This document shows, piece by piece, positions 2,146-41,709 of a stretch of 64,000 bases of DNA. The stretch is from Giardia intestinalis (lineage: Eukaryota), in the NCBI GenBank assembly GCA_000002435.2, contig CM018791.1. One strand, given 5' to 3'. The notes under the pieces are model-generated. The model saw nothing but the letters and a program-made list of their open reading frames with translations, searched no databases and was not told where the DNA came from. Position numbers and translations under genes: made by a program. Within the stretch, counting starts at the first letter, position 1. Each line of letters starts with the position of its first letter.

Positions 2146-5100
2146 ATGTTACTAGTACTTCTCGCAAGTTGTATAGCTGTACAAGCCGCGGTGTGTGCGC
2201 CCGCGCTGATCGGCGCCGGGTGTGCGACATGCACAGGAGAGAACGACGGACAGACGTGCCTTACGTGTAATCCCCAAGAGAACAAGGTGCAGCCTGGCGG
2301 AAAGAAATGCGGAGTCGGCTGCCCGGCGAACTCCACCCCTAAGGAGAGCGTGTGCGAGTGCAACGGAGGATACAGGCCGAACGCCCAGGGCCAGTGCGAG
2401 CAAGACCCCGCCGCGGTGTGTGCGCCCGCGCTGATCGGCGCCGGGTGTGCGACATGCACAGGAGAGAACGACGGACAGACGTGCCTTACGTGTAATCCCC
2501 AAGAGAACAAGGTGCAGCCTGGCGGAAAGAAATGCGGAGTCGGCTGCCCGGCGAACTCCACCCCTAAGGAGAGCGTGTGCGAGTGCAACGGAGGATACAG
2601 GCCGAACGCCCAGGGCCAGTGCGAGCAAGACCCCGCCGCGGTGTGTGCGCCCGCGCTGATCGGCGCCGGGTGTGCGACATGCACAGGAGAGAACGACGGA
2701 CAGACGTGCCTTACGTGTAATCCCCAAGAGAACAAGGTGCAGCCTGGCGGAAAGAAATGCGGAGTCGGCTGCCCGGCGAACTCCACCCCTAAGGAGAGCG
2801 TGTGCGAGTGCAACGGAGGATACAGGCCGAACGCCCAGGGCCAGTGCGAGCAAGACCCCGCCGCGGTGTGTGCGCCCGCGCTGATCGGCGCCGGGTGTGC
2901 GACATGCACAGGAGAGAACGACGGACAGACGTGCCTTACGTGTAATCCCCAAGAGAACAAGGTGCAGCCTGGCGGAAAGAAATGCGGAGTCGGCTGCCCG
3001 GCGAACTCCACCCCTAAGGAGAGCGTGTGCGAGTGCAACGGAGGATACAGGCCGAACGCCCAGGGCCAGTGCGAGCAAGACCCCGCCGCGGTGTGTGCGC
3101 CCGCGCTGATCGGCGCCGGGTGTGCGACATGCACAGGAGAGAACGACGGACAGACGTGCCTTACGTGTAATCCCCAAGAGAACAAGGTGCAGCCTGGCGG
3201 AAAGAAATGCGGAGTCGGCTGCCCGGCGAACTCCACCCCTAAGGAGAGCGTGTGCGAGTGCAACGGAGGATACAGGCCGAACGCCCAGGGCCAGTGCGAG
3301 CAAGACCCCGCCGCGGTGTGTGCGCCCGCGCTGATCGGCGCCGGGTGTGCGACATGCACAGGAGAGAACGACGGACAGACGTGCCTTACGTGTAATCCCC
3401 AAGAGAACAAGGTGCAGCCTGGCGGAAAGAAATGCGGAGTCGGCTGCCCGGCGAACTCCACCCCTAAGGAGAGCGTGTGCGAGTGCAACGGAGGATACAG
3501 GCCGAACGCCCAGGGCCAGTGCGAGCAAGACCCCGCCGCGGTGTGTGCGCCCGCGCTGATCGGCGCCGGGTGTGCGACATGCACAGGAGAGAACGACGGA
3601 CAGACGTGCCTTACGTGTAATCCCCAAGAGAACAAGGTGCAGCCTGGCGGAAAGAAATGCGGAGTCGGCTGCCCGGCGAACTCCACCCCTAAGGAGAGCG
3701 TGTGCGAGTGCAACGGAGGATACAGGCCGAACGCCCAGGGCCAGTGCGAGCAAGACCCCGCCGCGGTGTGTGCGCCCGCGCTGATCGGCGCCGGGTGTGC
3801 GACATGCACAGGAGAGAACGACGGACAGACGTGCCTTACGTGTAATCCCCAAGAGAACAAGGTGCAGCCTGGCGGAAAGAAATGCGGAGTCGGCTGCCCG
3901 GCGAACTCCACCCCTAAGGAGAGCGTGTGCGAGTGCAACGGAGGATACAGGCCGAACGCCCAGGGCCAGTGCGAGCAAGACCCCGCCGCGGTGTGTGCGC
4001 CCGCGCTGATCGGCGCCGGGTGTGCGACATGCACAGGAGAGAACGACGGACAGACGTGCCTTACGTGTAATCCCCAAGAGAACAAGGTGCAGCCTGGCGG
4101 AAAGAAATGCGGAGTCGGCTGCCCGGCGAACTCCACCCCTAAGGAGAGCGTGTGCGAGTGCAACGGAGGATACAGGCCGAACGCCCAGGGCCAGTGCGAG
4201 CAAGACCCCGCCGCGGTGTGTGCGCCCGCGCTGATCGGCGCCGGGTGTGCGACATGCACAGGAGAGAACGACGGACAGACGTGCCTTACGTGTAATCCCC
4301 AAGAGAACAAGGTGCAGCCTGGCGGAAAGAAATGCGGAGTCGGCTGCCCGGCGAACTCCACCCCTAAGGAGAGCGTGTGCGAGTGCAACGGAGGATACAG
4401 GCCGAACGCCCAGGGCCAGTGCGAGCAAGACCCCGCCGCGGTGTGTGCGCCCGCGCTGATCGGCGCCGGGTGTGCGACATGCACAGGAGAGAACGACGGA
4501 CAGACGTGCCTTACGTGTAATCCCCAAGAGAACAAGGTGCAGCCTGGCGGAAAGAAATGCGGAGTCGGCTGCCCGGCGAACTCCACCCCTAAGGAGAGCG
4601 TGTGCGAGTGCAACGGAGGATACAGGCCGAACGCCCAGGGCCAGTGCGAGCAAGACCCCGCCGCGGTGTGTGCGCCCGCGCTGATCGGCGCCGGGTGTGC
4701 GACATGCACAGGAGAGAACGACGGACAGACGTGCCTTACGTGTAATCCCCAAGAGAACAAGGTGCAGCCTGGCGGAAAGAAATGCGGAGTCGGCTGCCCG
4801 GCGAACTCCACCCCTAAGGAGAGCGTGTGCGAGTGCAACGGAGGATACAGGCCGAACGCCCAGGGCCAGTGCGAGCAAGACCCCGCCGCGGTGTGTGCGC
4901 CCGCGCTGATCGGCGCCGGGTGTGCGACATGCACAGGAGAGAACGACGGACAGACGTGCCTTACGTGTAATCCCCAAGAGAACAAGGTGCAGCCTGGCGG
5001 AAAGAAATGCGGAGTCGGCTGCCCGGCGAACTCCACCCCTAAGGAGAGCGTGTGCGAGTGCAACGGAGGATACAGGCCGAACGCCCAGGGCCAGTGCGAG

Positions 5101-8100
5101 CAAGACCCCGCCGCGGTGTGTGCGCCCGCGCTGATCGGCGCCGGGTGTGCGACATGCACAGGAGAGAACGACGGACAGACGTGCCTTACGTGTAATCCCC
5201 AAGAGAACAAGGTGCAGCCTGGCGGAAAGAAATGCGGAGTCGGCTGCCCGGCGAACTCCACCCCTAAGGAGAGCGTGTGCGAGTGCAACGGAGGATACAG
5301 GCCGAACGCCCAGGGCCAGTGCGAGCAAGACCCCGCCGCGGTGTGTGCGCCCGCGCTGATCGGCGCCGGGTGTGCGACATGCACAGGAGAGAACGACGGA
5401 CAGACGTGCCTTACGTGTAATCCCCAAGAGAACAAGGTGCAGCCTGGCGGAAAGAAATGCGGAGTCGGCTGCCCGGCGAACTCCACCCCTAAGGAGAGCG
5501 TGTGCGAGTGCAACGGAGGATACAGGCCGAACGCCCAGGGCCAGTGCGAGCAAGACCCCGCCGCGGTGTGTGCGCCCGCGCTGATCGGCGCCGGGTGTGC
5601 GACATGCACAGGAGAGAACGACGGACAGACGTGCCTTACGTGTAATCCCCAAGAGAACAAGGTGCAGCCTGGCGGAAAGAAATGCGGAGTCGGCTGCCCG
5701 GCGAACTCCACCCCTAAGGAGAGCGTGTGCGAGTGCAACGGAGGATACAGGCCGAACGCCCAGGGCCAGTGCGAGCAAGACCCCGCCGCGGTGTGTGCGC
5801 CCGCGCTGATCGGCGCCGGGTGTGCGACATGCACAGGAGAGAACGACGGACAGACGTGCCTTACGTGTAATCCCCAAGAGAACAAGGTGCAGCCTGGCGG
5901 AAAGAAATGCGGAGTCGGCTGCCCGGCGAACTCCACCCCTAAGGAGAGCGTGTGCGAGTGCAACGGAGGATACAGGCCGAACGCCCAGGGCCAGTGCGAG
6001 CAAGACCCCGCCGCGGTGTGTGCGCCCGCGCTGATCGGCGCCGGGTGTGCGACATGCACAGGAGAGAACGACGGACAGACGTGCCTTACGTGTAATCCCC
6101 AAGAGAACAAGGTGCAGCCTGGCGGAAAGAAATGCGGAGTCGGCTGCCCGGCGAACTCCACCCCTAAGGAGAGCGTGTGCGAGTGCAACGGAGGATACAG
6201 GCCGAACGCCCAGGGCCAGTGCGAGCAAGACCCCGCCGCGGTGTGTGCGCCCGCGCTGATCGGCGCCGGGTGTGCGACATGCACAGGAGAGAACGACGGA
6301 CAGACGTGCCTTACGTGTAATCCCCAAGAGAACAAGGTGCAGCCTGGCGGAAAGAAATGCGGAGTCGGCTGCCCGGCGAACTCCACCCCTAAGGAGAGCG
6401 TGTGCGAGTGCAACGGAGGATACAGGCCGAACGCCCAGGGCCAGTGCGAGCAAGACCCCGCCGCGGTGTGTGCGCCCGCGCTGATCGGCGCCGGGTGTGC
6501 GACATGCACAGGAGAGAACGACGGACAGACGTGCCTTACGTGTAATCCCCAAGAGAACAAGGTGCAGCCTGGCGGAAAGAAATGCGGAGTCGGCTGCCCG
6601 GCGAACTCCACCCCTAAGGAGAGCGTGTGCGAGTGCAACGGAGGATACAGGCCGAACGCCCAGGGCCAGTGCGAGCAAGACCCCGCCGCGGTGTGTGCGC
6701 CCGCGCTGATCGGCGCCGGGTGTGCGACATGCACAGGAGAGAACGACGGACAGACGTGCCTTACGTGTAATCCCCAAGAGAACAAGGTGCAGCCTGGCGG
6801 AAAGAAATGCGGAGTCGGCTGCCCGGCGAACTCCACCCCTAAGGAGAGCGTGTGCGAGTGCAACGGAGGATACAGGCCGAACGCCCAGGGCCAGTGCGAG
6901 CAAGACCCCGCCGCGGTGTGTGCGCCCGCGCTGATCGGCGCCGGGTGTGCGACATGCACAGGAGAGAACGACGGACAGACGTGCCTTACGTGTAATCCCC
7001 AAGAGAACAAGGTGCAGCCTGGCGGAAAGAAATGCGGAGTCGGCTGCCCGGCGAACTCCACCCCTAAGGAGAGCGTGTGCGAGTGCAACGGAGGATACAG
7101 GCCGAACGCCCAGGGCCAGTGCGAGCAAGACCCCGCCGCGGTGTGTGCGCCCGCGCTGATCGGCGCCGGGTGTGCGACATGCACAGGAGAGAACGACGGA
7201 CAGACGTGCCTTACGTGTAATCCCCAAGAGAACAAGGTGCAGCCTGGCGGAAAGAAATGCGGAGTCGGCTGCCCGGCGAACTCCACCCCTAAGGAGAGCG
7301 TGTGCGAGTGCAACGGAGGATACAGGCCGAACGCCCAGGGCCAGTGCGAGCAAGACCCCGCCGCGGTGTGTGCGCCCGCGCTGATCGGCGCCGGGTGTGC
7401 GACATGCACAGGAGAGAACGACGGACAGACGTGCCTTACGTGTAATCCCCAAGAGAACAAGGTGCAGCCTGGCGGAAAGAAATGCGGAGTCGGCTGCCCG
7501 GCGAACTCCACCCCTAAGGAGAGCGTGTGCGAGTGCAACGGAGGATACAGGCCGAACGCCCAGGGCCAGTGCGAGCAAGACCCCGCCGCGGTGTGTGCGC
7601 CCGCGCTGATCGGCGCCGGGTGTGCGACATGCACAGGAGAGAACGACGGACAGACGTGCCTTACGTGTAATCCCCAAGAGAACAAGGTGCAGCCTGGCGG
7701 AAAGAAATGCGGAGTCGGCTGCCCGGCGAACTCCACCCCTAAGGAGAGCGTGTGCGAGTGCAACGGAGGATACAGGCCGAACGCCCAGGGCCAGTGCGAG
7801 CAAGACCCCGCCGCGGTGTGTGCGCCCGCGCTGATCGGCGCCGGGTGTGCGACATGCACAGGAGAGAACGACGGACAGACGTGCCTTACGTGTAATCCCC
7901 AAGAGAACAAGGTGCAGCCTGGCGGAAAGAAATGCGGAGTCGGCTGCCCGGCGAACTCCACCCCTAAGGAGAGCGTGTGCGAGTGCAACGGAGGATACAG
8001 GCCGAACGCCCAGGGCCAGTGCGAGCAAGACCCCGCCGCGGTGTGTGCGCCCGCGCTGATCGGCGCCGGGTGTGCGACATGCACAGGAGAGAACGACGGA

Positions 8101-8607
8101 CAGACGTGCCTTACGTGTAATCCCCAAGAGAACAAGGTGCAGCCTGGCGGAAAGAAATGCGGAGTCGGCTGCCCGGCGAACTCCACCCCTAAGGAGAGCG
8201 TGTGCGAGTGCAACGGAGGATACAGGCCGAACGCCCAGGGCCAGTGCGAGCAAGACCCCGCCGCGGTGTGTGCGCCCGCGCTGATCGGCGCCGGGTGTGC
8301 GACATGCACAGGAGAGAACGACGGACAGACGTGCCTTACGTGTAATCCCCAAGAGAACAAGGTGCAGCCTGGCGGAAAGAAATGCGGAGTCGGCTGCCCG
8401 GCGAACTCCACCCCTAAGGAGAGCGTGTGCGAGTGCAACGGAGGATACAGGCCGAACGCCCAGGGCCAGTGCGAGCCTTCTAATACTAATAAGAGTAGCG
8501 GTCTTTCTACCGGCGCCATAGCAGGCATCGCTGTGGCTGCTGTCATCGTTGTAGGAGGGCTCGTCGGCTTCCTTTGCTGGTGGTTCATATGTAGGGGGAA
8601 AGCGTAG
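2146..8607 (+). CDS. Variant-specific surface protein (VSP), 2153 aa: signal peptide, 28 identical 75-aa Cys-rich tandem modules (two CXXC motifs and an NST sequon per module), TM helix, CRGKA tail
   Basis: ATG at 2146 preceded by AT-rich 'caattaattacag'. N-terminal hydrophobic MLLVLLASCIAVQA. C-terminus ...GIAVAAVIVVGGLVGFLCWWFICRGKA* is the invariant Giardia VSP tail. The VSP extended poly(A) signal follows the stop. 10 Cys per 75-aa unit. Confidence 0.93.
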   Translation: MLLVLLASCIAVQAAVCAPALIGAGCATCTGENDGQTCLTCNPQENKVQPGGKKCGVGCPANSTPKESVCECNGGYRPNAQGQCEQDPAAVCAPALIGAGCATCTGENDGQTCLTCNPQENKVQPGGKKCGVGCPANSTPKESVCECNGGYRPNAQGQCEQDPAAVCAPALIGAGCATCTGENDGQTCLTCNPQENKVQPGGKKCGVGCPANSTPKESVCECNGGYRPNAQGQCEQDPAAVCAPALIGAGCATCTGENDGQTCLTCNPQENKVQPGGKKCGVGCPANSTPKESVCECNGGYRPNAQGQCEQDPAAVCAPALIGAGCATCTGENDGQTCLTCNPQENKVQPGGKKCGVGCPANSTPKESVCECNGGYRPNAQGQCEQDPAAVCAPALIGAGCATCTGENDGQTCLTCNPQENKVQPGGKKCGVGCPANSTPKESVCECNGGYRPNAQGQCEQDPAAVCAPALIGAGCATCTGENDGQTCLTCNPQENKVQPGGKKCGVGCPANSTPKESVCECNGGYRPNAQGQCEQDPAAVCAPALIGAGCATCTGENDGQTCLTCNPQENKVQPGGKKCGVGCPANSTPKESVCECNGGYRPNAQGQCEQDPAAVCAPALIGAGCATCTGENDGQTCLTCNPQENKVQPGGKKCGVGCPANSTPKESVCECNGGYRPNAQGQCEQDPAAVCAPALIGAGCATCTGENDGQTCLTCNPQENKVQPGGKKCGVGCPANSTPKESVCECNGGYRPNAQGQCEQDPAAVCAPALIGAGCATCTGENDGQTCLTCNPQENKVQPGGKKCGVGCPANSTPKESVCECNGGYRPNAQGQCEQDPAAVCAPALIGAGCATCTGENDGQTCLTCNPQENKVQPGGKKCGVGCPANSTPKESVCECNGGYRPNAQGQCEQDPAAVCAPALIGAGCATCTGENDGQTCLTCNPQENKVQPGGKKCGVGCPANSTPKESVCECNGGYRPNAQGQCEQDPAAVCAPALIGAGCATCTGENDGQTCLTCNPQENKVQPGGKKCGVGCPANSTPKESVCECNGGYRPNAQGQCEQDPAAVCAPALIGAGCATCTGENDGQTCLTCNPQENKVQPGGKKCGVGCPANSTPKESVCECNGGYRPNAQGQCEQDPAAVCAPALIGAGCATCTGENDGQTCLTCNPQENKVQPGGKKCGVGCPANSTPKESVCECNGGYRPNAQGQCEQDPAAVCAPALIGAGCATCTGENDGQTCLTCNPQENKVQPGGKKCGVGCPANSTPKESVCECNGGYRPNAQGQCEQDPAAVCAPALIGAGCATCTGENDGQTCLTCNPQENKVQPGGKKCGVGCPANSTPKESVCECNGGYRPNAQGQCEQDPAAVCAPALIGAGCATCTGENDGQTCLTCNPQENKVQPGGKKCGVGCPANSTPKESVCECNGGYRPNAQGQCEQDPAAVCAPALIGAGCATCTGENDGQTCLTCNPQENKVQPGGKKCGVGCPANSTPKESVCECNGGYRPNAQGQCEQDPAAVCAPALIGAGCATCTGENDGQTCLTCNPQENKVQPGGKKCGVGCPANSTPKESVCECNGGYRPNAQGQCEQDPAAVCAPALIGAGCATCTGENDGQTCLTCNPQENKVQPGGKKCGVGCPANSTPKESVCECNGGYRPNAQGQCEQDPAAVCAPALIGAGCATCTGENDGQTCLTCNPQENKVQPGGKKCGVGCPANSTPKESVCECNGGYRPNAQGQCEQDPAAVCAPALIGAGCATCTGENDGQTCLTCNPQENKVQPGGKKCGVGCPANSTPKESVCECNGGYRPNAQGQCEQDPAAVCAPALIGAGCATCTGENDGQTCLTCNPQENKVQPGGKKCGVGCPANSTPKESVCECNGGYRPNAQGQCEQDPAAVCAPALIGAGCATCTGENDGQTCLTCNPQENKVQPGGKKCGVGCPANSTPKESVCECNGGYRPNAQGQCEQDPAAVCAPALIGAGCATCTGENDGQTCLTCNPQENKVQPGGKKCGVGCPANSTPKESVCECNGGYRPNAQGQCEQDPAAVCAPALIGAGCATCTGENDGQTCLTCNPQENKVQPGGKKCGVGCPANSTPKESVCECNGGYRPNAQGQCEPSNTNKSSGLSTGAIAGIAVAAVIVVGGLVGFLCWWFICRGKA
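2176..8475 (+). repeat. Tandem array of ~28 x 225-bp units, all copies apparently identical at nucleotide level, in frame within the VSP gene
   Basis: Period-225 recurrence of identical embedded ORFs at 2222, 2447, ... 8297 (28 copies). The sequence lines repeat verbatim. The last unit diverges at 8476 (cagtgcgagccttctaat vs cagtgcgagcaagacccc). Confidence 0.95.
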
Positions 8608-8611
8608 ATGT

Positions 8612-8626
8612 ACTTAGGTAGTAAAC
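8612..8626 (+). terminator. VSP-type extended polyadenylation signal ACTTAGGTAGTAAAC (consensus ACTYAGRTAGTRAAY), 5 nt after TAG stop
   Basis: Exact match to the published VSP-specific 3' motif containing the general Giardia AGTRAAY signal. Confidence 0.85.
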
Positions 8627-9033
8627 GCGTCACTGTATATGGCTCATATAAATGTGCTGCTGGGCTCACTTGAGGACCTGGTCCAGAGATCGTGCGGGTA
8701 ATCATCGCTCCTTCCTGGCCAGTTCAGAGACGAGGGTTGGCTGTGGATGATATAATAGGGATCTCCCTTCACTTGTATACCAGGAGTCTTTTGCGTCCCT
8801 CAGTTGTTCCGCAGAGGTGTGCTCAGTCTGAGTATGCACGTCGGTCCTTTAGGGGTTCAGGCCTTCTTGCAGACTCTCTGCTCTACCGGTGGCGCCTCTC
8901 CTTAGTCTTTCTTCGTGGTGGGTGAAGCTCCGGTCACCATCCTTTTTTAGATGCCCCGTCTGCCAGGGGCTGCCATCGGGCTCTCCGCTGGCTGGGCCCC
9001 TCGGTGTCCGGGCAGCTGTGGTTCTGGGTCAGT

Positions 9034-10974
9034 GCTCTACAGTCGCGGTCACTAGGTCCCAGTGGGTTCGGATGGTGGGTGAGGAGGGGTTGCTGAGGCG
9101 GTGAGGCTGGTGGGACCGGGGGGTGTTCGCATGTGCCTCTGGGGTCAGTGGGTCAGTGAGGTGGTGGCTGTGGTGACTGGGGGCTATCCATCTATGATTC
9201 ACCCCTCTGTGGACTCGTGGTCTGTGAGTGCCTCCACCCAGACAGCACCCCAGGAGCCGGAGAGTGGTGCCAGCCTAGCTGCCCTCCCTCCTCGGTGCCT
9301 CCCAGTGCAGACTCACCGGAGGCCACTACCCTGTCAGCCACCCAAAGGAGCCGTGCACACCGGGACAGAGAGGATGACCAAGGGGGTCAAGCAGCCCTGC
9401 CACGAGGGTGCACAGCAACCAGCATGAGATGTAGGGTCTGCTCGAGCGATGTAGTGGCAGACGACTCCCTCTGACAGCGACCCTGGTGACTGCACTGGTC
9501 TGCTCTCGAGGCTGAGTGACAGTGTGCACAGATGGACATGAGTGCAGGAGGACCGTCCACACACGGACAGACTGTGTGGACCCAGAGAGGACTGGAGTCT
9601 GCTCGGGACACGCTGACTGTGTGCCCATACGAGAGTGCCAGGCAACTACTCAAGCACCGAGAGGCAGGTACAGACACGGGCACTAGAGATCCCCAGCCAG
9701 ACACATTGCTATGCTCATCCACAGGGGCATCAGAGGGCCAGGTGGAGTCACCCTCACAGTTAGGGCCTGATAGGAAGCCAGAGGACTCAAACACTACAGC
9801 AGGCCCAAGGGAGGCACACTCCAGGCAGGTGAGCAGTGGCAGAGCCTTGATAGCTGCCATCCACCCCCATGACACCCAGGCAGGCACCAGACTCCGAAGA
9901 CTCGCTGGCCTCGACTGATGACCCGAGGGGGCAGCAGCCAGAGGAGTGAGGAGGCCTTCGGACACCACAAGAGGCCGGCTGTCCAGCAGGCTATGAGGCA
10001 GACAGGTGGCCTCTGAGCACCATAAGGCACAGGAGCCGACCATCATGAGTGATGCCCGATCACAGAGATGACCACGAGCGCCCTCCACCGCACTCTGGGG
10101 GGCTGTCGATCATCCCACTGCCTCTCATAGCAGACCTCCTTGGGGGCAGTGCAGTGGGTCCCAGCTCATACAGGAGGGTGTGTGCCCCCCTCAGTATAGG
10201 ATGCCCCGACTCTTCCCGAGGGGTCATCAGAGCCACGAGGAGGGGTCAAGGTCCTGGTGGATCACACCGGGAACCCCTCGAATGGGCACAGCAGGTGATG
10301 TTGGGTGACCCTCAGCGTGCTCCTCTCTGCATGGTAGAGCATCCTGAGACCAAGGAAGCTCACCCCTGCCTACGGATGACACACAGCGCTCCACAACGAG
10401 GACCCACCAGGAGCAGCACAGCTGACCACGGGGGCAGTGCAGCCACCCGGTACCCCACCATGCCAGTCTTCTGGGCCATCACACTAGAGGCCTGAGAGAA
10501 CCCCATCCCATCCACAGGGTCATCCACACCCCTGCTGGCCCGAGGTGAACTGCACCCATCGAGGCACTGGACAGGGCATGCTGGGGGCCCAGCAGATCCA
10601 CACAGAGCATCAGCACAGAGCATCAGCGAGTAGCAGGAGAGGCTGCGATGGCCTGCCTCAGCCCTCACGTACCAGCCAGCCAGAGGCAGTACTACCCGAG
10701 ACATGCAGGGGCCAAGGGAGGCGCTCAGTCAGGGGACATGACACAATCGTCGGTGCCTGTGTCTCGGGGAGTGCAACGCAGGCTGGGGATCAGACGCAAC
10801 CACCTTGGCAAACAGAGAGGGGATCACCCACCACCCCACTGGCCCACCAGACCCAGGGGCACATACAAGCACCCCCACCCGGTCCCCCGGTCCCACCAGC
10901 CTCACCGCCTCAGCAACCCCTCCTCACCCACCAGCCGGCCCGCTATGGAACCTACGTGACCGTGACCGTGGGAG
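9034..10974. other. GC-rich, strand-skewed central spacer of the palindrome (G-rich on + strand at left edge, C-rich on + strand at right edge); no credible CDS
   Basis: Only overlapping multi-frame ORFs with Pro/Arg/Gly/His-rich translations typical of GC-rich non-coding DNA. Composition mirrors itself across the centre (degenerate IR). Confidence 0.6.
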
Positions 10975-11382
10975 CGCTGACCCAGAACCACAGCTGCCCG
11001 GACACCGAGGGGCCCAGCCAGTGGAGAGCCCGATGGCAGCCCCTGGCAGACGGGGCATCTAAAAAAGGATGGTGACCGGAGCTTCACCCACCACGAAGAA
11101 AGACTAAGGAGAGGCGCCACCGGTAGAGCAGAGAGTCTGCAAGAAGGCCTGAACCCCTAAAGGACCGACGTGCATACTCAGACTGAGCACACCTCTGCGG
11201 AACAACTGAGGGACGCAAAAGACTCCTGGTATACAAGTGAAGGGAGATCCCTATTATATCATCCACAGCCAACCCTCGTCTCTGAACTGGCCAGGAAGGA
11301 GCGATGATTACCCGCACGATCTCTGGACCAGGTCCTCAAGTGAGCCCAGCAGCACATTTATATGAGCCATATACAGTGACGC

Positions 11383-11397
11383 GTTTACTACCTAAGT
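11383..11397 (-). terminator. Mirror copy of VSP extended polyadenylation signal for the short VSP paralog
   Basis: gtttactacctaagt on + strand is the reverse complement of ACTTAGGTAGTAAAC; it lies just 3' of the 11402..11788 CDS. Confidence 0.8.
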
Positions 11398-11401
11398 ACA
11401 T

Positions 11402-11788
11402 CTACGCTTTCCCCCTACATATGAACCACCAGCAAAGGAAGCCGACGAGCCCTCCTACAACGATGACAGCAGCCACAGCGATGCCTGCTATGGCGCCGGT
11501 AGAAAGACCGCTACTCTTATTAGTATTAGAAGGCTCGCACTGGCCCTGGGCGTTCGGCCTGTATCCTCCGTTGCACTCGCACACGCTCTCCTTAGGGGTG
11601 GAGTTCGCCGGGCAGCCGACTCCGCATTTCTTTCCGCCAGGCTGCACCTTGTTCTCTTGGGGATTACACGTAAGGCACGTCTGTCCGTCGTTCTCTCCTG
11701 TGCATGTCGCACACCCGGCGCCGATCAGCGCGGGCGCACACACCGCGGCTTGTACAGCTATACAACTTGCGAGAAGTACTAGTAACAT
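11402..11788 (-). CDS. Short VSP paralog (128 aa): same signal peptide, a single Cys-rich module, TM helix and CRGKA tail
   Basis: Protein MLLVLLASCIAVQA + one 75-aa module + ...PSNTNKSSGLSTGAIAGIAVAAVIVVGGLVGFLCWWFICRGKA*. Its N-terminus and the C-terminal 44 aa match the long copy exactly. Same promoter-proximal sequence and poly(A) signal. Confidence 0.75.
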   Translation of the reverse strand: MLLVLLASCIAVQAAVCAPALIGAGCATCTGENDGQTCLTCNPQENKVQPGGKKCGVGCPANSTPKESVCECNGGYRPNAQGQCEPSNTNKSSGLSTGAIAGIAVAAVIVVGGLVGFLCWWFICRGKA

Positions 11789-14190
11789 TGGAGTTAGGAT
11801 CTGTAATTAATTGGTACTTTCTTCACTCAGATGTATAGATTGGTCCATGAATGAGAAGAGCTTAAATTGGCAGCGTCTTTCTGTAACTTAGTTAATTAAA
11901 GAAGCTTAGAATCGGGGGCGTATTGCTACTGGGAAGCGACCAATATCATAGATTTATCTCTTGATTTAAATAAGAGTAAGGCTAGTTAATACAAAGTTAG
12001 ACTCAAACATTACACATAGTACGAGGAGCTCATAGTATGCCTGTGGTCATATCTTTTCTGCCCCTCCTACTGACGTTATTGGCTTCCTCTGCTGGAAAAG
12101 GCGTAGACTCACGCTTAGCTGTAAACGCGTCTCCTACTACTCCATCGCGGGCATGTTGTCTGCTCCATGCGAGTCGCGCACCAATATCTGAACAGACAAT
12201 GGACATCTGAATCTGCAATGCTCCGGCTCATATAAGGGTGCCTCGCTTGTCGCCGGCTTCTCCTAGTGGCTACCCACCTAATCGCTCTCGACCTTCTCTA
12301 CATAATCAGCCACATCGTTGTACTTCTTTGCACCTTAATACGATCCTCATCAGTCCAGACAATCCAGAACATCCTACTCGCAGAGAGGAATATACCGTCA
12401 AAGCATAGTTTCTATGAGGCGCTATCGAGATAGTTTGTATAGCTGCCTCATTATAGTTAAGGAGAGCACAGCCTACTGACAAGATCAGGCTGGATGCAAG
12501 TAAGGGCTGTGTGTGAGATATGCTGAGAAGGATGTGTGTATGCGATCAACATGCCCTATATTTGGCTGCAGATAGCTACAGGCTACGCTCTTTCGGGGCT
12601 TATTCATTAATGTGTAGATGACTTCTAAAGTCCTTAGTGATGAGATACATCACTCCCAGTAGTGCACACATACTGGATGTCTTCAACAGAGACTGCCATT
12701 AAACTCCTTGAGGCTGGCTGCTTTAAAAGTGACACCCCTGCATTCTTGTTGAGTGCAGCAGTACGCTGATATATCCTGCATGAATATCCATCACAAATAG
12801 ACAACTCTATGAATAAAGCCAAAGAAGATCAGATGATGAAGTCGAGACAGTTGGCAGAAGAAATCAGAGTGCATTAGAAAGCTCATAAGATCGAGAAGCT
12901 AAGCATAATGACTAGATAAGGGCTGTGTGCACAATCTTCGATCGGTATCGCCGAGCAAGATGCTGATGCGTGCTATTGCTTTACGTTTGAGTTGCGACTG
13001 AGGTAGCTCAACAACAAATTAGGGCTGCCACAATTGCTTATCTATCCGCAAATATACCATGGCAATGACAGTGCAGCAGATAGGAATGTTCACAGGGACA
13101 TCATGAGTATTATCGCTAGAAGTCCTATTCCAACAACCTTCTATGGCTTCATGAGCATGCTCACAGCAATTCTTTCGATAGAATGTCGATTATAGAAACG
13201 CAGCCATGGATTGTAAAGTTGCTCTGCAGAAGTGATGTTCCCTCTCTTCACCTTTTACGCAAGGGACTAATGCAAACAGTTTGCCTCCCGGTAGCAACAA
13301 GATGTGCAGCACAGAGTGTATGGCCCCTTGTGTGCATCAGATCAGAGCTTAAGAGTAGAGCCGAACGGCTGTCTGCTTGTCTTGCGACGAAGGCATGGGC
13401 AAAAGCTCTGCCACACTTTATGGAATTAGCCTTAAGGTGAGTGGTGGTTATGTGCCTAGTGCCTTGGAAGCCTGGTACGCACAGTATAGGACAGACTCGA
13501 TCAGGTGTTCAGGATACGTGGAGTAGGGTTGACATTGCAGTGGGCTTGCATCAAAGAGCGTGGCGGGCTGTGTCCCAACCTCAGAAAGAGTAGTGCGGTC
13601 TAAAATAGAGAGAAGTAGGAGGTGCTTTATTGCAAGTACGTCTTAACAAAATAGCAGAGAGGCTCTTCTGCACGCTGTCAAGAGCAGTACAAGCTCTCCG
13701 CTAGCGCAAGACCGTTCCACGCATCAACTCTATTAGCTATGTAAAAGGCCGTCAGAAAAGCGAGACGGCGCCTAGCTGTCTGCGAGTAAAGCCTTCAGGG
13801 TTTAAAGCATGGGAGGGCAAGGCCCGGTCTGGAGAGCGTCCTGCTGGCCAGGCAGGCCGGGCATCGGTCGAGCCAGCAGGTGGGCTCCAAACCCACTGCG
13901 TTGGCTTCAAACTCTCCGCACAGGGGCACGCCTGAGGGGCCCGCAAGCCCCTGGTGCAGAGGACGGGGCCTGCTGGTGTTGTGGTCACGACAGTGGCTCT
14001 GGTGTACTCCAGGAGCGGCCACCGCAGGGCTGGTCGGGCCGTGTGAGCAGGGTTCTGCGGAGCCCGAGTAGAGTCTGTTCTGTGTGTATGGCCACTCAGA
14101 GGCAGTGGCCTAACGATATTCATCGACCTACTAACTAGTAAACCCGATAAAGAGCCGGTTGGAATACGCAAATACGTGCATAAGAGCAAA

Positions 14191-19359: not shown

Positions 19360-22300
19360 CTAGTCTTCGTGTATAACAATGAAAATATCCCCTGCTGTAA
19401 TTTTCTCTATTTCCTCGGAACATGGAAGAAAGACAGATGATATGGACCCCATCTCCTTACTATAAATGTCTACGAAGATTGGACACTCAATCACCTGTGG
19501 GGATGCCTCATAATAACCAGAGTAGTTTTTATTAGAGAAGTACACTAGTCGCCGGTCGAAGATGTTCTTGGCTCGCAGCCCATCGTACTTCTTCAGAACA
19601 TTGAGCTCCACCACATTGAGCGGCCTTGCCTCCACGAAGTCTGTCTCGGACGAAGACTCTGTTACGGACGACACAGATGTGACACCAGGCTGCTTTCTCA
19701 GGTCGTCACGTGGTGTGGTGTCTCGGGATTCCTCATTGCTGCTGGCATTCACGCTCCTTCGAGAGTTAGACCGAGTACCTAAATCTAAGGTTAGCTTAAT
19801 TCCTAATCTGTTCAAGCGGGCTTTTGGCTGCGTAGATTGCTGTATTTTAGGTGTGTTTGCCATTACGTTCGAATCTGCATGGGTTTCCTGAATCTCGGGG
19901 GGGGGAGTGGGAACAGCGGGTGTAATTGGCTTGCTATTCTGCACAGACTTTGTATTTGGCGTCGCTATGCACGGTCTGCCAGACATTGGGCGAGCCTTGT
20001 TAGCACGCTCATTAGGAGCGCCGACGGCTGAGTTACTATCTCCAGGAAGCCCAACCATCGGAGCTGAGTCATCCGTCCCAGAGAGTGTCATGCTTTGCTC
20101 TGTTTTCATAAAGGAATCATTCATGTTTCTCCTAGCTTGCTCAGAGGCATATATAGTCGATGAAAAATTCCCCAAGCTTATGATAACAGACTTTTTCTTG
20201 TATATCCTCTGCGCAAGAACGCGCATTGCAGGCAGTGGATTGTATATGCTCGTCACGCTTTGGCTGCTTACCTTTCCAATGCTGAGGTCAACGTATGCAG
20301 ACTTAAGTTTCAGACCGGATATCTGAACGTTGTCCCGTTGACGTAGGTTTGCGTACGGGACTATATCATACGCCAATGTGTATTGATCTACGGTCCCACC
20401 AGTGATGTAGCAGGCCTGGGCACGGAATGCAGTGAACAGGGCAGACGGCCGGAAGGTCAACGAGATGTCAATGTTCATATAATTCCGGTCAATCATGGCA
20501 TCGTTATAGTATGATCGCGCTCGGACAAGGTGATTGATCAGCTTGAAGAGATTGTCCACGTGGCGCTGAATCATGAATTGAAGGATATAGTCCGGGATGA
20601 CGTCATATCTAGCGTACCGGATATAGTCCACCAAGTCTTTAACCATGCGATTGTAGAACATTATTTCCTGGTACATAAAGAACATCAAGGGACAGGACTT
20701 CTCATTAGCATCTATCTTGGTATTAATCTCGGTAGGCAACGACAAAGCCAGCTTACGACGGTCATAGTGAATCAATCTAACGTTGTAAGAAATAGATTTT
20801 GCAACAGAGTACATGACCCCAGATCCTAAGGTTGAGTCTAAAAACTCTAGTATCTGCTGCCCCTCTCGCTGGTAAAGATAAATCCTTTCTGGATCAGCAA
20901 GCCCTAAGTGGCGCGGATTGTCTCTAACCGTATTTATATCTACACTAAGAATAGCGTTGCTGATCATCTTCTTCATTGCTGCAGTATCAAATTCACCTCT
21001 GTTATAGAGCTGCGCCGGGTCCTGTAAGAGCATAGTACCTACTTCAGCACGAACATGCCTTGAGCTATATCCAAATACAAACTCCGTTAAGTATTTCAAT
21101 ACAGTACGGTCATGCTGAGTGCCCATTTTCGCACCGTATTTATCAATGATATTCTCAACCAATCTATTGTACAGAACAAGACAATTGTCGTTAAAAACTA
21201 GTTCGTGAGCAAGAATTCGGAAGAACGTAATCAGAACAGATTCCAAGTCGCTCTCGTCAAACGAGCTGTATACAGATGTCCAGCCGTGCGTGCCAAAGGA
21301 ACAGCGACTTATGATCGCAGCTATGGCATAGGAGTTCTTGATAAATAGCGTGCTGATGTCTGTTAACCCTATCGTTGTTTGCATGTGCTCCTCTTTGTAC
21401 TGCTCAATATCAAAGTTGTGTACATCCTTAAACTCAGCCAGATACTTCTGAGACAGTTCCATCGTTCTCTTATAGACGCTTGAAAAGCTGACATCTGAAC
21501 TTCGTTTAAAGGAGATGCAGGCCTGGGCAAAGGAAGATAAACTGGATGCGTCTCCCTCCGCTGTAACAATTAATTTAAAATGCCTAGACACTGGCTTGAA
21601 GTCAGGAATCCCTGTCTGAAGGAGCGTTGCGGCCATTGTGCGCAGAAGTGGAGTAGCAGTGACGCCCGGTGGCATGGGCCCTCCACGTAACGGAGCAGTG
21701 GCACCAATAGGATCCTGATTGACGTCTATAGCAGACATGTTCATGGATGTTGTAGATTGATCTATTGCTGACGCCTCAAAGATAGAGCCATCGCCCACGT
21801 CCATTCGGTAGCTATTGGCCGTTAACGCCGCATAATGTCTGCGCAGATCGTTGTTGACAAAATCAGGAACGAGGTGTGCATTCTGAAGAACTAGCCAAAC
21901 GGGGGAGCCGATGTGCTGCGAGAGAGCGCTCAGGGCCATCTTCTCCGTTCCTTTGCTAAGTGGCAAAACCTTCAGCTCTATGATTGGATTGTCATCGGCA
22001 TAGTTCTCCACATGACTCTTAAGCATAACGCTCTTCTTTGCTTTCACAATGGCCTCGCGAGCGGCTGTGCTAGCCTGCATCAACTGGTAGCTCTCTTGTG
22101 GTAAGAATTGCGAAATAAAGCGAACTGCATCTACGGACGAAGAGTGATTGAAGAGAATAGGCAGCTGGCTATCGCTGATATTGAGAACAGATCCAAAGTT
22201 GAGTCTCTGCACTGCAGACAAACGGATGTTATAACGCTTTATGCTTCTCACAATATAATTGTTGACGGCAATCCGCAGGAATGCGGGCCTGAAGTGTTTG

Positions 22301-40300: not shown

Positions 40301-41709
40301 GGGTCAGCAGAGCCATCTGCACACTCCTCTGTTGGAAGGGTAGCAGCTTGCTGTAGCGCATCGTTGCTTGGTGCGTGAATGGGGACAGGAGTTGCTGAGC
40401 TGAGATCCTGTTTAGCCGATTTAGTTGTTTTTCTGAGGGATGCACTGGATGCAGAGCCTGCTCGGCTTTTAATCACCCAATCTGACATAGACCGTGTAAT
40501 TTTCTTAATCCCTTGGGACAGCTTTTCGTCCGGTCCTTCCAAGGCGTCCTGTCCTCGTGATCCGCTATGATCTGCAGTACCTGAAATGCTGCTAGAGTAC
40601 CCCATTTCGCTAGCACTGCGTATCTTGCCAGTAAACTTATATTTCTTGTTTAAGCCTCTAGTGTAGCTACTAAGCGCTGTGCTGGGCCGGACCGCGTCCA
40701 GCGCCATCTTACTGTTCTGCTCATACAGCTTGCAGCCCTGTAGCTGCCCAGGATCGACCACAAACTCTGATTTTCTTCCTGTGCGCTTAAACTCCTCTAT
40801 ACGTCGCTGTAGTGCTAGCTCTGGAGGATTGTCTCCTGATGGACCACTTTGGGCACCTGTGAAGGTCAGTCTATCACCGTATGACGAGTCTGCAGTGCCC
40901 CCGGTGCGTTCACGCCGGATCCTGGAGGTAAGCTGAGTGGTACTAGTCGGCCTTCGAAGGACCCCTGAGCTAAGAGGTGTAACTCTCAACGTATCTTCTA
41001 ATATCTCACTTTCATCAACGTGACCTGCATTGGTTCCGAGTAATGCAGAAGCAATACTGTCACGACTGACACGTCCATAAATGTCAACTGTGCAAAGTGG
41101 AGAAGACTCTAATGCTTTCTGAGCATCTTGGCGTCGATAGCGCTCTGGAGAAAGCTGGTACTGGGATAAAAACTGCTGCGTGGGCTCAGAGCCAACGTCA
41201 TGAAGGCGAAGAGACTGGCCTGTTGCTGAGGCACCGGGTGGTTGGTTTGTTTCTTGTGCAGCTTTAGTGTACAGCCTTTTAGATGAAACCAAACGGCCTA
41301 CCGGGCCCAGCAAAGCCTGAGGGCCGTTACCTGCCGAGCTATCTCGCTCCTTTCTCTTTGTAATAGCAGTGTCGTAGCAGCGTTCTAAGGGAAGAAGTAG
41401 AGAGCCAGTGGAGACTTGATTGAGACGCTCCCCGAAGACAAGTGGGGGCACGGCTGTGGATCCGACTGGTTTGAGAGGCGGCTGCGCACCCATAGGTGGA
41501 GGTGACGAGTAAAGCTTGGCAGCGGGGTTGGGCGGTGTCTGGGCCGAGCTGGGACGTTGGGCCCGGGACCCTATAATAGCAGTGTTAGGAGTTGTGTTTG
41601 ACGAGATGTGTTGTGTTCGTAAGCTAGTGGTTGGTCTTCCAGTATGTGAAAGAGCTGATTGTGGCCGTGTGGTTCTAGCAGCTCCAGTGACATCATATGT
41701 GTCAACCAT
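19360..41709 (-). CDS. Giant (7449 aa) divergent dynein heavy chain family protein
   Basis: Uninterrupted 22.3-kb ORF. AAA1: [35 protein letters not shown]...[10 protein letters not shown]...[49 protein letters not shown] (P-loop encoded at 31885..31917 on the - strand) matches dynein GPAGTGKTET...FNCS..LDY...DEFNR...ITMNPGY.GR.ELP.NLK.LFRP..M..PD. AAA2: [14 protein letters not shown]...[15 protein letters not shown]...DGIFS...[35 protein letters not shown]...STLSRCGI matches dynein AAA2 (VLDGP.D..WIEN.N.VLDDNK.L.L..GE.I......ATVSRCGM). About 3270 aa precede AAA1 and about 4150 follow it. Confidence 0.93.
   Translation of the reverse strand: [7449 protein letters not shown]

What the first reader, a model, noticed from the sequence alone, without database searches (positions are those of the whole stretch)
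11402..11788. Minimal 128-aa VSP: signal peptide + one module + TM + CRGKA
This would be near the smallest possible VSP architecture, and it is intact: ATG, no frame disruption, own extended poly(A) signal.

It could be a functional mini-VSP. It could equally be a contracted allele left after intra-array recombination, or the ancestral seed from which the 28-copy array expanded.
Basis: partly seen in the sequence, partly recalled or inferred. Interest (0 to 1): 0.5.

Follow-up and report, generated by a model that had tools for sequence, protein, structure and literature searches.

The report
Known mini-VSP, twin of 28-repeat VSP
The 128-residue open reading frame is a real, intact and already catalogued Giardia surface-antigen gene (GL50803_00102178, vsp156), and its main interest is that it is the one-module mirror-image twin of the neighbouring 28-module gene.

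Summary
Window 11402..11788 (-) encodes an intact 128-aa protein: signal peptide, one 72-aa Cys-rich module, TM helix and CRGKA tail. It has a CAATGTT initiator and the extended VSP poly(A) signal. It is not new. It is Giardia intestinalis WB gene GL50803_00102178 (XP_001704930.1, vsp156 of Adam 2010), listed in every VSP catalogue, and is the second-shortest of 136 VSPs (range 127-2293 aa).

The gene is the short arm of a convergent (tail-to-tail) inverted duplication. Its partner is the 28-unit VSP at 2146..8607 (+), GL50803_0050290. The big gene equals the mini gene plus exactly 27 x 225 nt. The flanks match for at least 2145 nt upstream (1 mismatch) and 430 nt downstream (2 mismatches). 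The ORFs lie 2794 nt apart, as in the known identical VSP pairs.

Single-module orthologues of 127-128 aa exist in assemblages A2 and E beside the same NEK kinase, with dN/dS 0.16-0.35. The one-module architecture is therefore ancestral and constrained, and the array is most simply a WB-lineage amplification. Published RNA data show only background sense and antisense signal. Published peptides cannot separate mini from big. Collapse of a longer array at this copy is unlikely. The gene is ordinary, with one modest unrecorded twist: an asymmetric pair, 1 versus 28 units.

The parts
11402..11788 (-). Mini-VSP coding sequence, 128 aa plus stop. This is GL50803_00102178 / XP_001704930.1 / KAE8302826.1 (vsp156).
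   Evidence: ORF list and translation. Pfam VSP E=1.2e-18. 100% identical to the annotated WB protein. Gene ID and sequence in S1 of bioRxiv 10.1101/2022.03.07.483299.
11738..11788 (-). Signal peptide (residues 1-17, MLLVLLASCIAVQAAVC as called in the published catalogue).
   Evidence: Hydrophobic N-terminus, KD peak 3.0. SP=Y in S1 table of the preprint.
11533..11749 (-). The single 217-nt module (residues 14-85), 100% identical to each of the 28 units of the neighbouring array.
   Evidence: Inverted-repeat pairs I3-I25. Prefix/suffix analysis.
11420..11494 (-). Transmembrane helix AIAGIAVAAVIVVGGLVGFLCWWFI (residues 99-123).
   Evidence: Invariant columns in the alignment of 28 small VSPs. 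Helix 105-125 in the AF2 model. TMD call in S1.
11402..11419 (-). CRGKA cytoplasmic tail plus TAG stop.
   Evidence: Pattern search: 2 matches in the window, 0 expected.
11383..11397 (-). Extended VSP polyadenylation signal ACTTAGGTAGTAAAC, starting 5 nt after the stop.
   Evidence: Pattern ACTYAGRTAGTRAAY: 2 matches, 0 expected. Listed for this gene in S6 of the preprint.
11784..11790 (-). Initiator element CAATGTT spanning the ATG.
   Evidence: Sequence read. 'caatgtt, Y' in S1. vsp156 listed with CAATGTT in Adam 2010 suppl. 1.
10972..13933 (-). Right arm of the inverted duplication: 430 nt of 3' flank, the mini-VSP, and at least 2145 nt of 5' flank. The measured length is limited by the window start on the other arm. 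DH homology runs on to 13998.
   Evidence: Base-by-base comparison: 1 mismatch in 2145 nt upstream, 2 in 430 nt downstream. A degenerate extension reaches 10825 at 93.8%.
1..9037 (+). Left arm of the inverted duplication, cut by the window start. It carries the 28-unit VSP.
2146..8607 (+). Big twin VSP, 2153 aa: GL50803_0050290 / XP_037901808.1 / KAE8302825.1. It equals the mini gene plus exactly 27 x 225 nt.
   Evidence: Translation. TRF finds 28.0 copies of 225 nt at 100% identity. Prefix 256 + suffix 348 analysis. Accessions.
9038..10971 (.). GC-rich (61-65%) non-coding spacer between the two arms. The unique core is about 9171-10824. Its orientation is inverted relative to the assemblage A2 (DH) locus.
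   Evidence: No Pfam hits on its ORFs and no significant VSP remnant. DH colinearity 13998->9562.

Best explanation
The feature is the annotated Giardia intestinalis WB gene GL50803_00102178 (vsp156). It is an intact type-I membrane protein made of a signal peptide, one membrane-proximal Cys-rich module, the conserved VSP transmembrane helix and the CRGKA tail.

It is the short member of a convergent (tail-to-tail) inverted duplication. The other member, GL50803_0050290, carries 28 perfect tandem copies of the same 75-aa module.

Shown:
- The two genes are identical except for 27 extra units.
- Their flanks are near-identical.
- The geometry (2794 nt between ORFs, 3' identity ending about 430 nt past the stop) matches the published class of identical inverted VSP pairs.
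- One-module orthologues exist at the NEK-kinase-flanked locus in assemblages A2 and E and evolve under purifying selection.

Inferred history:
- The one-module architecture is ancestral.
- In the A1/WB lineage the segment (5' flank, gene, 3' flank) was duplicated in inverted orientation across a spacer of about 1.9 kb.
- A tandem duplication created an 8-nt linker (AAGACCCC, encoding QDP) in one copy. Unequal recombination or slippage then amplified it to 28 units.
- Recombination or gene conversion between the arms keeps the copies identical. It has inverted the interval at least once, since the spacer is flipped relative to DH.

Inferred function: the gene is a member of the silent VSP repertoire that could be switched on as a very small coat protein of about 10 kDa when mature. 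In the clones studied so far it shows only background sense and antisense transcription.

The confidence given (0.85) is for the identity of the gene and the structure of the pair. The order of historical events and actual surface expression are much less certain, at about 0.5 each.
For: Identity and anatomy.

Inverted duplication:
- Arms 934-2401 / 11533-13000 and 8260-9037 / 10972-11749 are 100% complementary.
- There is 1 mismatch in 2145 nt upstream and 2 in 430 nt downstream.
- Big = mini + 27 x 225 nt, with a 217-nt shared module and an array-only 8-nt linker.

Fit to the known class:
- Adam 2010 Table 5 gives tail-to-tail distances of 2393-3222 nt and 3' divergence at 318-559 nt.
- Xu 2020 Table 2 gives 2526-2813 nt for convergent pairs.

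Orthologues:
- DH P0002 is 127 aa (84% identity) and P15 P0003 is 128 aa (78%).
- Both lie next to the same 334-aa NEK kinase, a 347-aa gene and an aminotransferase.
- All ectodomain Cys are conserved. dN/dS is 0.35 (WB-DH), 0.16 (WB-P15) and 0.21 (DH-P15); for TM plus tail it is 0.02-0.04.
- The WB orthologue of that kinase is KAE8302824.1, immediately preceding the big VSP KAE8302825.1 and the mini KAE8302826.1.
- DH is colinear with the right arm plus spacer, window 13998->9562.

The mini copy is independently supported:
- It was present in the 2007 Sanger assembly as XP_001704930.1, three accessions from the right-flank gene XP_001704933.1.
- An independent A2-like metagenome contig (L002) reads straight through a one-module gene.

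Recurrence: a second WB pair, GL50803_00112207 (205 aa, 2 units) and GL50803_0050070 (2293 aa, 31 units), differs by exactly 29 units.

Expression, from S9 of bioRxiv 10.1101/2022.03.07.483299:
- Unique-mapping sense TPM is 0-11.4.
- With two-location mapping, sense TPM is 13-33 and antisense 19-61.
- The expressed VSP in a clone reaches about 18,000 TPM.
Against: - The order of events cannot be read from the sequence. The alternatives are expansion after duplication, or contraction of one copy of an already expanded gene.
- DH and P15 are short-read assemblies, so a second arm or an array there could have been missed. The P15 contig ends 322 nt after the gene.
- Kinase adjacency in WB rests on consecutive GenBank accessions, not on sequence I could read, because the window starts inside the left arm.
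- The protein and its relatives lack the 'motif 1' (two CXXC 12-15 residues apart near the C-terminus) that Li et al. 2013 found necessary for surface localisation (PMC3656445). Surface display is therefore not assured.
- The published 'unique peptide' evidence for GL50803_00102178 (S13) cannot discriminate it from the big twin. All its tryptic peptides are contained in the big protein.
Confidence: 0.85

Rival explanations
1. Contracted copy. The gene was already amplified when the inverted duplication formed, or gene conversion later copied the array into both arms. This arm then lost 27 units in one in-register unequal recombination, single-strand annealing or slippage event, re-creating the ancestral one-module form.
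For: - One in-register event within the 217-nt homology between unit 1 and unit 28 gives exactly this sequence. The reverse route needs a new 8-nt linker plus many rounds of amplification.
- In the second pair the short copy keeps two units joined by the array-type linker (KTD). That is what a contraction product, or an arrested early expansion, would look like.
- Allelic variation in repeat number is documented for vspA6 and vspC5 (PMC2996952).
Against: - One-module orthologues in A2 and E show that the architecture predates the array, so no contraction is needed.
- Two independent pairs both sitting at the extremes (1 vs 28, 2 vs 31) are not expected from random drift of repeat number in both arms.
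Confidence: 0.3
2. Silent relic or sequence donor. The ORF is intact only because recombination with the big twin keeps copying good sequence into it. It is never used as the coat protein, and its product may not reach the surface.
For: - RNA is at background level only, with antisense equal to or above sense (S9).
- The protein lacks Li et al. motif 1.
- Near-identity of the arms shows recent homogenisation or very recent duplication.
Against: - The one-module gene is kept intact with dN/dS well below 1 in DH and P15, where no twin was found to repair it.
- It has a full set of VSP expression signals: Inr and extended PAS.
- A truncated VSP of only motif1-link-motif2 reaches the surface experimentally (PMC3656445), so small size as such is no bar.
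- Most VSPs are at background level in any given clone.
Confidence: 0.25
3. Assembly artefact. The one-unit copy is a collapsed or chimeric representation of a longer array, or of a palindromic long read.
For: - Perfect repeats and inverted duplications are classic sources of misassembly.
- The 128-aa ORF was found on a single contig in the 15-billion-protein collection, while neighbouring genes occur on 67-181 contigs.
Against: - The same 128-aa gene was assembled from Sanger reads in 2007 next to the same right-flank genes: XP_001704930.1 beside XP_001704933.1.
- The right arm is only about 3 kb between unique sequences, which long reads span easily.
- One-module genes are assembled independently in DH, P15 and a metagenome.
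- The rarity of the ORF in short-read assemblies is what a real array plus inverted repeat would cause, because the assembly graph tangles there.
Confidence: 0.03
4. Hairpin-RNA source. Read-through transcription across the convergent pair yields an RNA whose two ends are complementary (module, TM region and 3' flank). This would feed the RNAi-type pathway proposed to silence VSPs.
For: - The arrangement is convergent and perfectly complementary, with a spacer of about 1.9 kb.
- Antisense signal is comparable to sense over the mini gene (S9).
Against: - Each gene has its own strong extended poly(A) signal starting 5 nt after the stop.
- Antisense transcription is genome-wide in Giardia, with many S9 rows showing similar antisense TPM.
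- No read-through data are available.
- The same argument would apply to all 12-13 identical convergent pairs, so it says nothing specific about the mini gene.
Confidence: 0.07

Closest known systems
Identical inverted (tail-to-tail) VSP gene pairs of Giardia WB, e.g. vsp1267 / GL50803_00112208 + d112208 (Adam et al. 2010, PMC2996952; Xu et al. 2020, PMC7000408)
   Same: - Convergent orientation.
- 2794 nt between ORFs, against published ranges of 2393-3222 and 2526-2813 nt.
- 3' flanks identical up to an abrupt divergence about 430 nt past the stop, against a published 318-559 nt.
- A GC-rich non-coding spacer.
   Different: - The two ORFs are not the same length (28 units against 1), so the pair is absent from the published pair lists. 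The 'duplicated_with' entry is '-' in S1 of the 2022 preprint.
- That preprint states that no duplicated VSPs have repeats.
- The 5' identity is much longer here: at least 2145 nt, against the 158-729 nt reported for head-to-head pairs. No 5' values were given for tail-to-tail pairs.
vspA6 (CRP170, about 23 x 195-bp repeats) versus vspA6-S1 / G3M (about one repeat) (Mowatt et al. 1994, as summarised in PMC2996952)
   Same: Two genes with the same non-repeat parts, differing essentially in tandem-repeat copy number: many copies against about one.
   Different: [quoted passage not shown] Here the two genes are 100% identical in sequence and are the two arms of one inverted duplication.
Other minimal VSPs: GL50803_008595 (vsp46, 127 aa), VSP-117 (102 aa, CRSKA) and the engineered motif1-link-motif2 truncation of VSP-175 (Li et al. 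2013, PMC3656445)
   Same: A minimal design: little or nothing but a membrane-proximal Cys module, then the TM helix and a short tail. GL50803_008595 is a 61%-identical paralogue with the same Cys spacing.
   Different: The Li et al. minimal constructs carry 'motif 1' (CXXC-12..15-CXXC). This gene does not: its two CXXC motifs are 8 residues apart and lie further from the membrane.
GL50803_00112207 (205 aa) / GL50803_0050070 (2293 aa) on chromosome 5
   Same: - A related module (64% identity).
- The short copy and a giant copy have consecutive accessions.
- The giant equals the short copy plus an exact number of units (29 x 72 aa).
   Different: The short copy keeps two units and the inter-unit linker. 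The orientation and flanks of that pair could not be read with the tools available.

Membership tests
Giardia variant-specific surface protein (VSP; Pfam PF03302; criteria of Adam 2010 / Xu 2020 / Rodriguez-Walker 2022) | Match to the Pfam VSP model above the gathering score | tested here: met
   E=1.2e-18, 67.6 bits against a cut-off of 31.4. Residues 15-128 match model positions 284-397.
Giardia variant-specific surface protein (VSP) | N-terminal signal peptide | tested here: met
   Hydrophobic stretch in residues 1-14, KD peak 3.0. SP=Y, MLLVLLASCIAVQAAVC, in S1 of bioRxiv 10.1101/2022.03.07.483299.
Giardia variant-specific surface protein (VSP) | Cys-rich ectodomain with at least two CXXC motifs | tested here: met
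   13 Cys (10.2%), with CXXC at residues 26 and 38. This is the published minimum of 2.
Giardia variant-specific surface protein (VSP) | Conserved C-terminal TM helix followed by CRGKA and a stop | tested here: met
Giardia variant-specific surface protein (VSP) | Initiator element (C/T)AATGTT at the start codon and extended poly(A) signal ACTYAGRTAGTRAAY just after the stop | tested here: met
   CAATGTT at 11784..11790. PAS at 11383..11397.
Giardia variant-specific surface protein (VSP) | GGCY motif (one or two per VSP, as described in PMC11169602) | tested here: not met
   The sequence has NGGYRP (GGY) but no GGCY (read directly). This motif is descriptive and is not used by the catalogues to define VSPs.
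Giardia variant-specific surface protein (VSP) | Displayed on the trophozoite surface, one VSP at a time, with switching | not testable with these tools
   Only published bulk RNA-seq is available: background TPM, sense and antisense. The S13 peptide evidence is ambiguous with respect to the big twin.
'Core' surface VSPs of Li, Saraiya & Wang 2013 (73 genes; PMC3656445) | Motif 2: conserved 38-residue hydrophobic C-terminus | tested here: met
   Residues 91-128 are conserved.
'Core' surface VSPs of Li, Saraiya & Wang 2013 | [quoted passage not shown] | tested here: not met
   A regex search finds no CXXC-12..15-CXXC and no GYY. The two CXXC motifs are 8 residues apart at positions 26-41. The same holds for the big twin, the DH and P15 orthologues and GL50803_008595.
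Identical inverted VSP pairs (Adam 2010; Xu 2020) | Two VSP genes in convergent or divergent orientation, 2-4 kb apart | tested here: met
   Convergent, with 2794 nt between ORFs.
Identical inverted VSP pairs | Flanks near-identical up to an abrupt divergence point a few hundred nt from the ORF | tested here: met
   The 3' flank is identical for 430 nt with 2 mismatches, then degenerates to about 563 nt. The 5' flank is identical for at least 2145 nt.
Identical inverted VSP pairs | The two ORFs are identical | tested here: not met
   The sequences are the same but the unit counts are 28 and 1 (2153 against 128 aa). The pair is not listed among published pairs.

The most novel reading that the evidence does not exclude
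Asymmetric inverted VSP pairs may be a recurrent, maintained arrangement. A minimal 'master' copy would be kept beside a hyper-amplified copy: 1 vs 28 units here, and 2 vs 31 units for GL50803_00112207 / GL50803_0050070, the pair that includes the longest VSP in the catalogue. Recombination between the arms could then reset or re-seed array length. That would let one locus present the same epitope as either a roughly 10-kDa or a roughly 220-kDa coat protein. Alternatively, a directional mechanism tied to orientation relative to replication or transcription could drive expansion in one arm only.
Probability: 0.12. Interest if true: 0.5.

Novelty: already known. Interest (0 to 1): 0.25.

Why it matters
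The gene itself adds nothing new. It is in GiardiaDB, RefSeq and three published VSP catalogues.

The useful points are practical.

1. The mini gene and the 28-unit gene should be treated as one duplicated pair. No short read and no tryptic peptide can be assigned to the mini gene alone. Published 'unique' expression or peptide calls for GL50803_00102178 are therefore ambiguous.

2. The pair, and a second one on chromosome 5, show that the inverted-pair arrangement and tandem-repeat amplification can combine. One published survey says this does not occur.

3. Comparison with A2 and E gives a clean natural example of how a giant repeat VSP can arise from a one-module ancestor.

Tried and rejected
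- Exact-sequence contig look-ups for the WB proteins (mini; P0004; P0005) returned nothing. I could therefore not read the WB sequence left of the window, the chromosome-5 pair, or other tail-to-tail spacers.
- Rfam scan of the window gave no hits. The GC-rich spacer is not rDNA or any known RNA.
- Pfam on the spacer and flank ORFs gave nothing. tblastn of 116 VSP sequences against the spacer gave only E>=0.005 noise. I therefore dropped the idea of a VSP pseudogene in the spacer, which has been reported for some tail-to-tail pairs.
- PDB sequence search gave only spurious TM matches to the glucagon receptor.
- The AF2 model is moderate (pLDDT 69 overall, about 80 over residues 20-80). Foldseek against PDB found no match with E<0.4. 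The top of the list is populated by furin-like and EGF-like Cys-rich repeats, but none is significant. I make no fold claim.
- The bacterial promoter/terminator scan is irrelevant for a eukaryote and found nothing.
- A search with a two-unit query for array-bearing proteins in other isolates found only the three one-module proteins. This is weak evidence, because short-read assemblies cannot hold such arrays.
- A literature search for '102178' in main texts found no Giardia paper that discusses the gene. It appears only in supplementary tables.
Full report
**1. What is at the coordinates**

Window 11402..11788 on the minus strand is an uninterrupted ATG-to-TAG ORF of 128 codons. Its product is MLLVLLASCIAVQAAVCAPALIGAGCATCTGENDGQTCLTCNPQENKVQPGGKKCGVGCPANSTPKESVCECNGGYRPNAQGQCEPSNTNKSSGLSTGAIAGIAVAAVIVVGGLVGFLCWWFICRGKA.

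- The N-terminus is hydrophobic (KD peak 3.0).
- The ectodomain has 13 Cys in total, with two CXXC motifs at residues 26 and 38.
- The conserved VSP transmembrane helix covers residues 99-123, followed by the CRGKA tail.
- Pfam VSP (PF03302) matches at E=1.2e-18, well above the gathering score. The match is to the C-terminal third of the model, that is, the membrane-proximal module plus the anchor.
- The initiator CAATGTT spans the ATG.
- The extended VSP poly(A) signal ACTTAGGTAGTAAAC starts 5 nt after the stop.
- That pattern and the CRGKA-stop pattern each occur exactly twice in 64 kb, with zero expected by chance.

**2. It is a known gene**

The protein is 100% identical to KAE8302826.1 / XP_001704930.1 / UniProt A8BT57, 'VSP', of Giardia intestinalis ATCC 50803 (WB clone C6), on the 1,973,847-bp chromosome.

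The supplementary tables of bioRxiv 10.1101/2022.03.07.483299 list it as GL50803_00102178 on chromosome 3 (NC_051858.1). The entry reads: 387 nt, 128 aa, Inr caatgtt, 13 Cys, 2 CXXC, signal peptide predicted, one TMD, CRGKA.

In Adam et al. 2010 (PMC2996952, Additional file 1) the only entry with these properties is vsp156 = GL50803_102178. It is listed as clade III, chromosome 3, complete, CAATGTT, 128 aa, 12.8 kDa, 13 Cys, 2 CXXC.

The 2022 catalogue gives the VSP length range as 127 to 2293 aa and the minimum CXXC count as 2. This gene is therefore the second-shortest complete VSP. The shortest is its 61%-identical paralogue GL50803_008595 (P0005).

Even smaller 'VSPs' have been discussed. 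VSP-117 has 102 aa, and a VSP-175 truncated to motif1-link-motif2, with the whole N domain deleted, still reaches the cell surface (PMC3656445).

**3.

The 28-copy array at 2185..8476 has a period of 225 nt and 100% matches. It lies inside a 2153-aa VSP on the plus strand, 2146..8607. That gene is GL50803_0050290 / XP_037901808.1 / KAE8302825.1, annotated only in the 2020 long-read assembly.

The two genes converge. Base-by-base comparison gives the following.
- The big CDS equals the mini CDS plus exactly 27 x 225 nt. The shared prefix is 256 nt and the shared suffix is 348 nt.
- The common module is 217 nt. The only array-specific sequence is the 8-nt inter-unit linker AAGACCCC, which encodes QDP.
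- Upstream of the two ATGs the sequences are reverse complements for all 2145 nt available before the window ends, with one mismatch.
- Downstream of the stops they match for 430 nt with two mismatches. They then degenerate (93.8% over 577 aligned columns, to about 563 nt) into a unique, GC-rich (61-65%) core.
- The ORFs are 2794 nt apart.

This matches the published class of 'identical inverted pairs'.
- Adam 2010 reports tail-to-tail distances of 2393-3222 nt and 3' divergence points 318-559 nt past the stop.
- Xu 2020 reports 2526-2813 nt for convergent pairs.

This pair is in neither list. The 2022 catalogue marks 'duplicated_with' as '-' and states that no duplicated VSPs have repeats. 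The reason is that pairs were recognised by identical ORFs.

The spacer has no Pfam-detectable ORF, no Rfam match and no significant VSP remnant.

**4. Relatives elsewhere and the direction of evolution**

The closest proteins are single-module VSPs of the same size in other assemblages:
- DHA2_151917 of isolate DH (A2): 127 aa, 84% identity.
- A P15 (E) VSP: 128 aa, 78% identity.

In both genomes the gene lies about 2.4-2.5 kb from a 334-aa NEK-type kinase, followed by a 347-aa gene and an aminotransferase.

All ectodomain cysteines are conserved and the frames are intact. Nei-Gojobori dN/dS values are:

| Comparison | Whole gene | Ectodomain | TM + tail |
|---|---|---|---|
| WB-DH | 0.35 | 0.71 | 0.02 |
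| WB-P15 | 0.16 | 0.27 | 0.03 |
| DH-P15 | 0.21 | 0.35 | 0.04 |

The one-module architecture therefore predates the A/E split and is under purifying selection.

An independent Illumina metagenome contig (L002) carries the DH-type gene. It reads from 2.2 kb upstream to 0.3 kb downstream without a break. That would be difficult if an identical-unit array were present in that sample.

A search with a two-unit query found no array-bearing protein in any other isolate. This is weak evidence, because short-read assemblies cannot hold such arrays.

The WB orthologue of the DH/P15 kinase is KAE8302824.1, the accession immediately before the big VSP (825) and the mini VSP (826). Genes to the right of the mini copy carry accessions 829-842 in window order. 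So the kinase lies just left of the window, on the side of the 28-unit gene. This is an inference from accession order.

The right-hand neighbours (DRC2 and onward) sit on other contigs in DH and P15. DH sequence is nevertheless colinear with the right arm and on through the spacer (window 13998->9562 at 90% identity). Relative to the kinase, the WB spacer is therefore inverted.

The simplest reading is that homologous recombination between the arms has flipped the interval at least once.
- A crossover in the 2.1-kb upstream arms would also swap the positions of the two genes.
- Which physical copy is 'original' therefore cannot be determined, and the question may have no meaning.

WB differs from DH by about 5% in the upstream flank. 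The two WB arms differ by 1 in 2145 nt. The duplication is thus either far younger than the A1/A2 split or is continuously homogenised.

**5. Seed, contraction or artefact**

A one-step in-register recombination between units 1 and 28 would turn the big gene into exactly the mini gene. The opposite direction needs the creation of the 8-nt linker and repeated amplification. That asymmetry favours 'contraction' mechanistically. The orthologues show that the one-module state existed first, so no contraction is required. I rate 'retained ancestral form, array amplified in the other arm' above 'secondarily contracted copy'. The sequence cannot decide between them.

Collapse of a longer array at this copy is very unlikely.
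- The same 128-aa gene was assembled from Sanger reads in 2007 (XP_001704930.1), three accessions away from the same right-flank gene, XP_001704933.1.
- The right arm is only about 3 kb between unique sequences.
- The kinase carries a distant accession in the 2007 set (XP_001704527.1, against XP_001704930.1 for the mini gene), so it was evidently not placed beside the mini gene there. That would fit an assembly break at the array.
- The intact 128-aa ORF was recovered on one contig in the large protein collection, whereas its neighbours occur on 67-181 contigs. That fits short-read assembly graphs breaking at a real array plus inverted repeat.

**6. Function**

Everything needed for expression as a VSP is present and is shared with the big twin over more than 2 kb of upstream sequence. 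Any difference in regulation must therefore come from further away or from the array itself.

Published strand-specific RNA-seq of three clonal populations (S9 of the 2022 preprint) gives the following for GL50803_00102178.
- Unique-mapping sense TPM: 2.3, 11.4, 3.4, 5.9, 1.7, 6.7 and 0.
- Two-location mapping: 13-33 TPM sense and 19-61 TPM antisense.
- For comparison, the VSP actually expressed by a clone reaches about 18,000 TPM.

This is the background level typical of silent VSPs. The non-zero unique-mapping values can only come from read pairs that bracket the single module, so they hint that the mini copy itself is transcribed at that level. This is my inference.

The preprint's S13 lists 'Unique' peptide evidence for this gene and none for the big twin. 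Every peptide of the mini protein is contained in the big protein, so that assignment cannot be taken at face value.

A real caveat for surface display comes from Li et al. 2013, who found a 'motif 1' (two CXXC motifs 12-15 residues apart, about 17 residues above the anchor) necessary for membrane localisation. This protein, its twin, its orthologues and its close paralogues lack it.

The AF2 model of the module is of moderate confidence (pLDDT about 80 over residues 20-80). It has no significant structural neighbour, and no solved homologue exists by sequence.

**7. A second case**

GL50803_00112207 (205 aa, two 72-aa units; vsp128, TR216 x 2 in Adam 2010) and GL50803_0050070 (2293 aa, the longest VSP in the catalogue) have consecutive accessions on chromosome 5. 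They differ by exactly 29 units. Their module is 64% identical to the one studied here.

Thus the longest catalogued VSP and this 2153-aa VSP each sit next to a minimal copy of themselves. I could not read that locus, so its orientation is unknown. The closest precedent in the literature is vspA6 (about 23 repeats) against vspA6-S1 (about one repeat).

**8. Verdict**

The gene is ordinary and already catalogued.

The unrecorded element is that it forms an asymmetric inverted pair with the 28-unit VSP. The practical consequence is that short reads and peptides cannot be assigned to it.

Interest is low to moderate. The most novel reading still open is that such asymmetric pairs are a maintained arrangement for resetting repeat length. 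It has little support beyond two examples.

Noticed in passing
window 19360..41709 (-): A single 7449-aa ORF carries dynein heavy chain domains (DHC_N2, AAA_6, MT stalk, AAA_9, Dynein_C). To my knowledge this is far longer than a typical dynein heavy chain of about 4,500 aa.
   Followed up: partly
not in window; WB chromosome 5, GL50803_00112207 and GL50803_0050070 (proteins P0004, P0122): A second short/giant VSP pair. The 205-aa gene has 2 x 72-aa units and the 2293-aa gene has 31 units. The giant equals the short copy plus exactly 29 units, and the accessions are consecutive. The orientation of the pair is unknown.
   Followed up: partly
window 9038..10971 versus L001 10815..12153: The spacer between the two VSP arms is inverted relative to the kinase-side flank when compared with isolate DH. 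This implies at least one inversion by recombination between the arms.
   Followed up: partly
window 2124..8705 (-), 2152..8352 (-), 11304..11810 (+): Very long stop-free ORFs occur in other frames and on the opposite strand of the array, and a 168-aa antisense ORF lies over the mini gene. These are by-products of a stop-free GC-rich 225-nt unit, not genes.
   Followed up: yes
L001 12570..14456 (-), isolate DH: In DH the sequence homologous to the WB spacer is followed by a reverse-transcriptase gene (RVT_1, 628 aa), a retrotransposon. Before it lies a degenerate 68%-identical direct copy of the VSP 3' flank (L001 12168-12420 against window 11328-11074).
   Followed up: no
L003 9265..9455 (P15) versus window 12195..12387 and 1547..1739: In P15, a 190-nt element starts 132 nt after the VSP stop. 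It is 72% identical to part of the WB VSP upstream flank but in the opposite orientation. It may be a dispersed repeat or a trace of an inverted arrangement in assemblage E. The contig ends there.
   Followed up: no
window 50104..51705 (-) and 62210..63988 (-): Two further Cys-rich membrane-protein genes lie in the window. One is annotated High cysteine membrane protein (KAE8302833.1). The other is a 592-aa ORF with EGF/teneurin-type repeats. Neither has CRGKA.
   Followed up: partly
protein collection, cluster of P0001: The intact 128-aa ORF was recovered on only one contig among about 15 billion proteins, whereas neighbouring WB genes occur on 67-181 contigs. Short-read assemblies of A1 isolates evidently break inside this gene.
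   Followed up: partly
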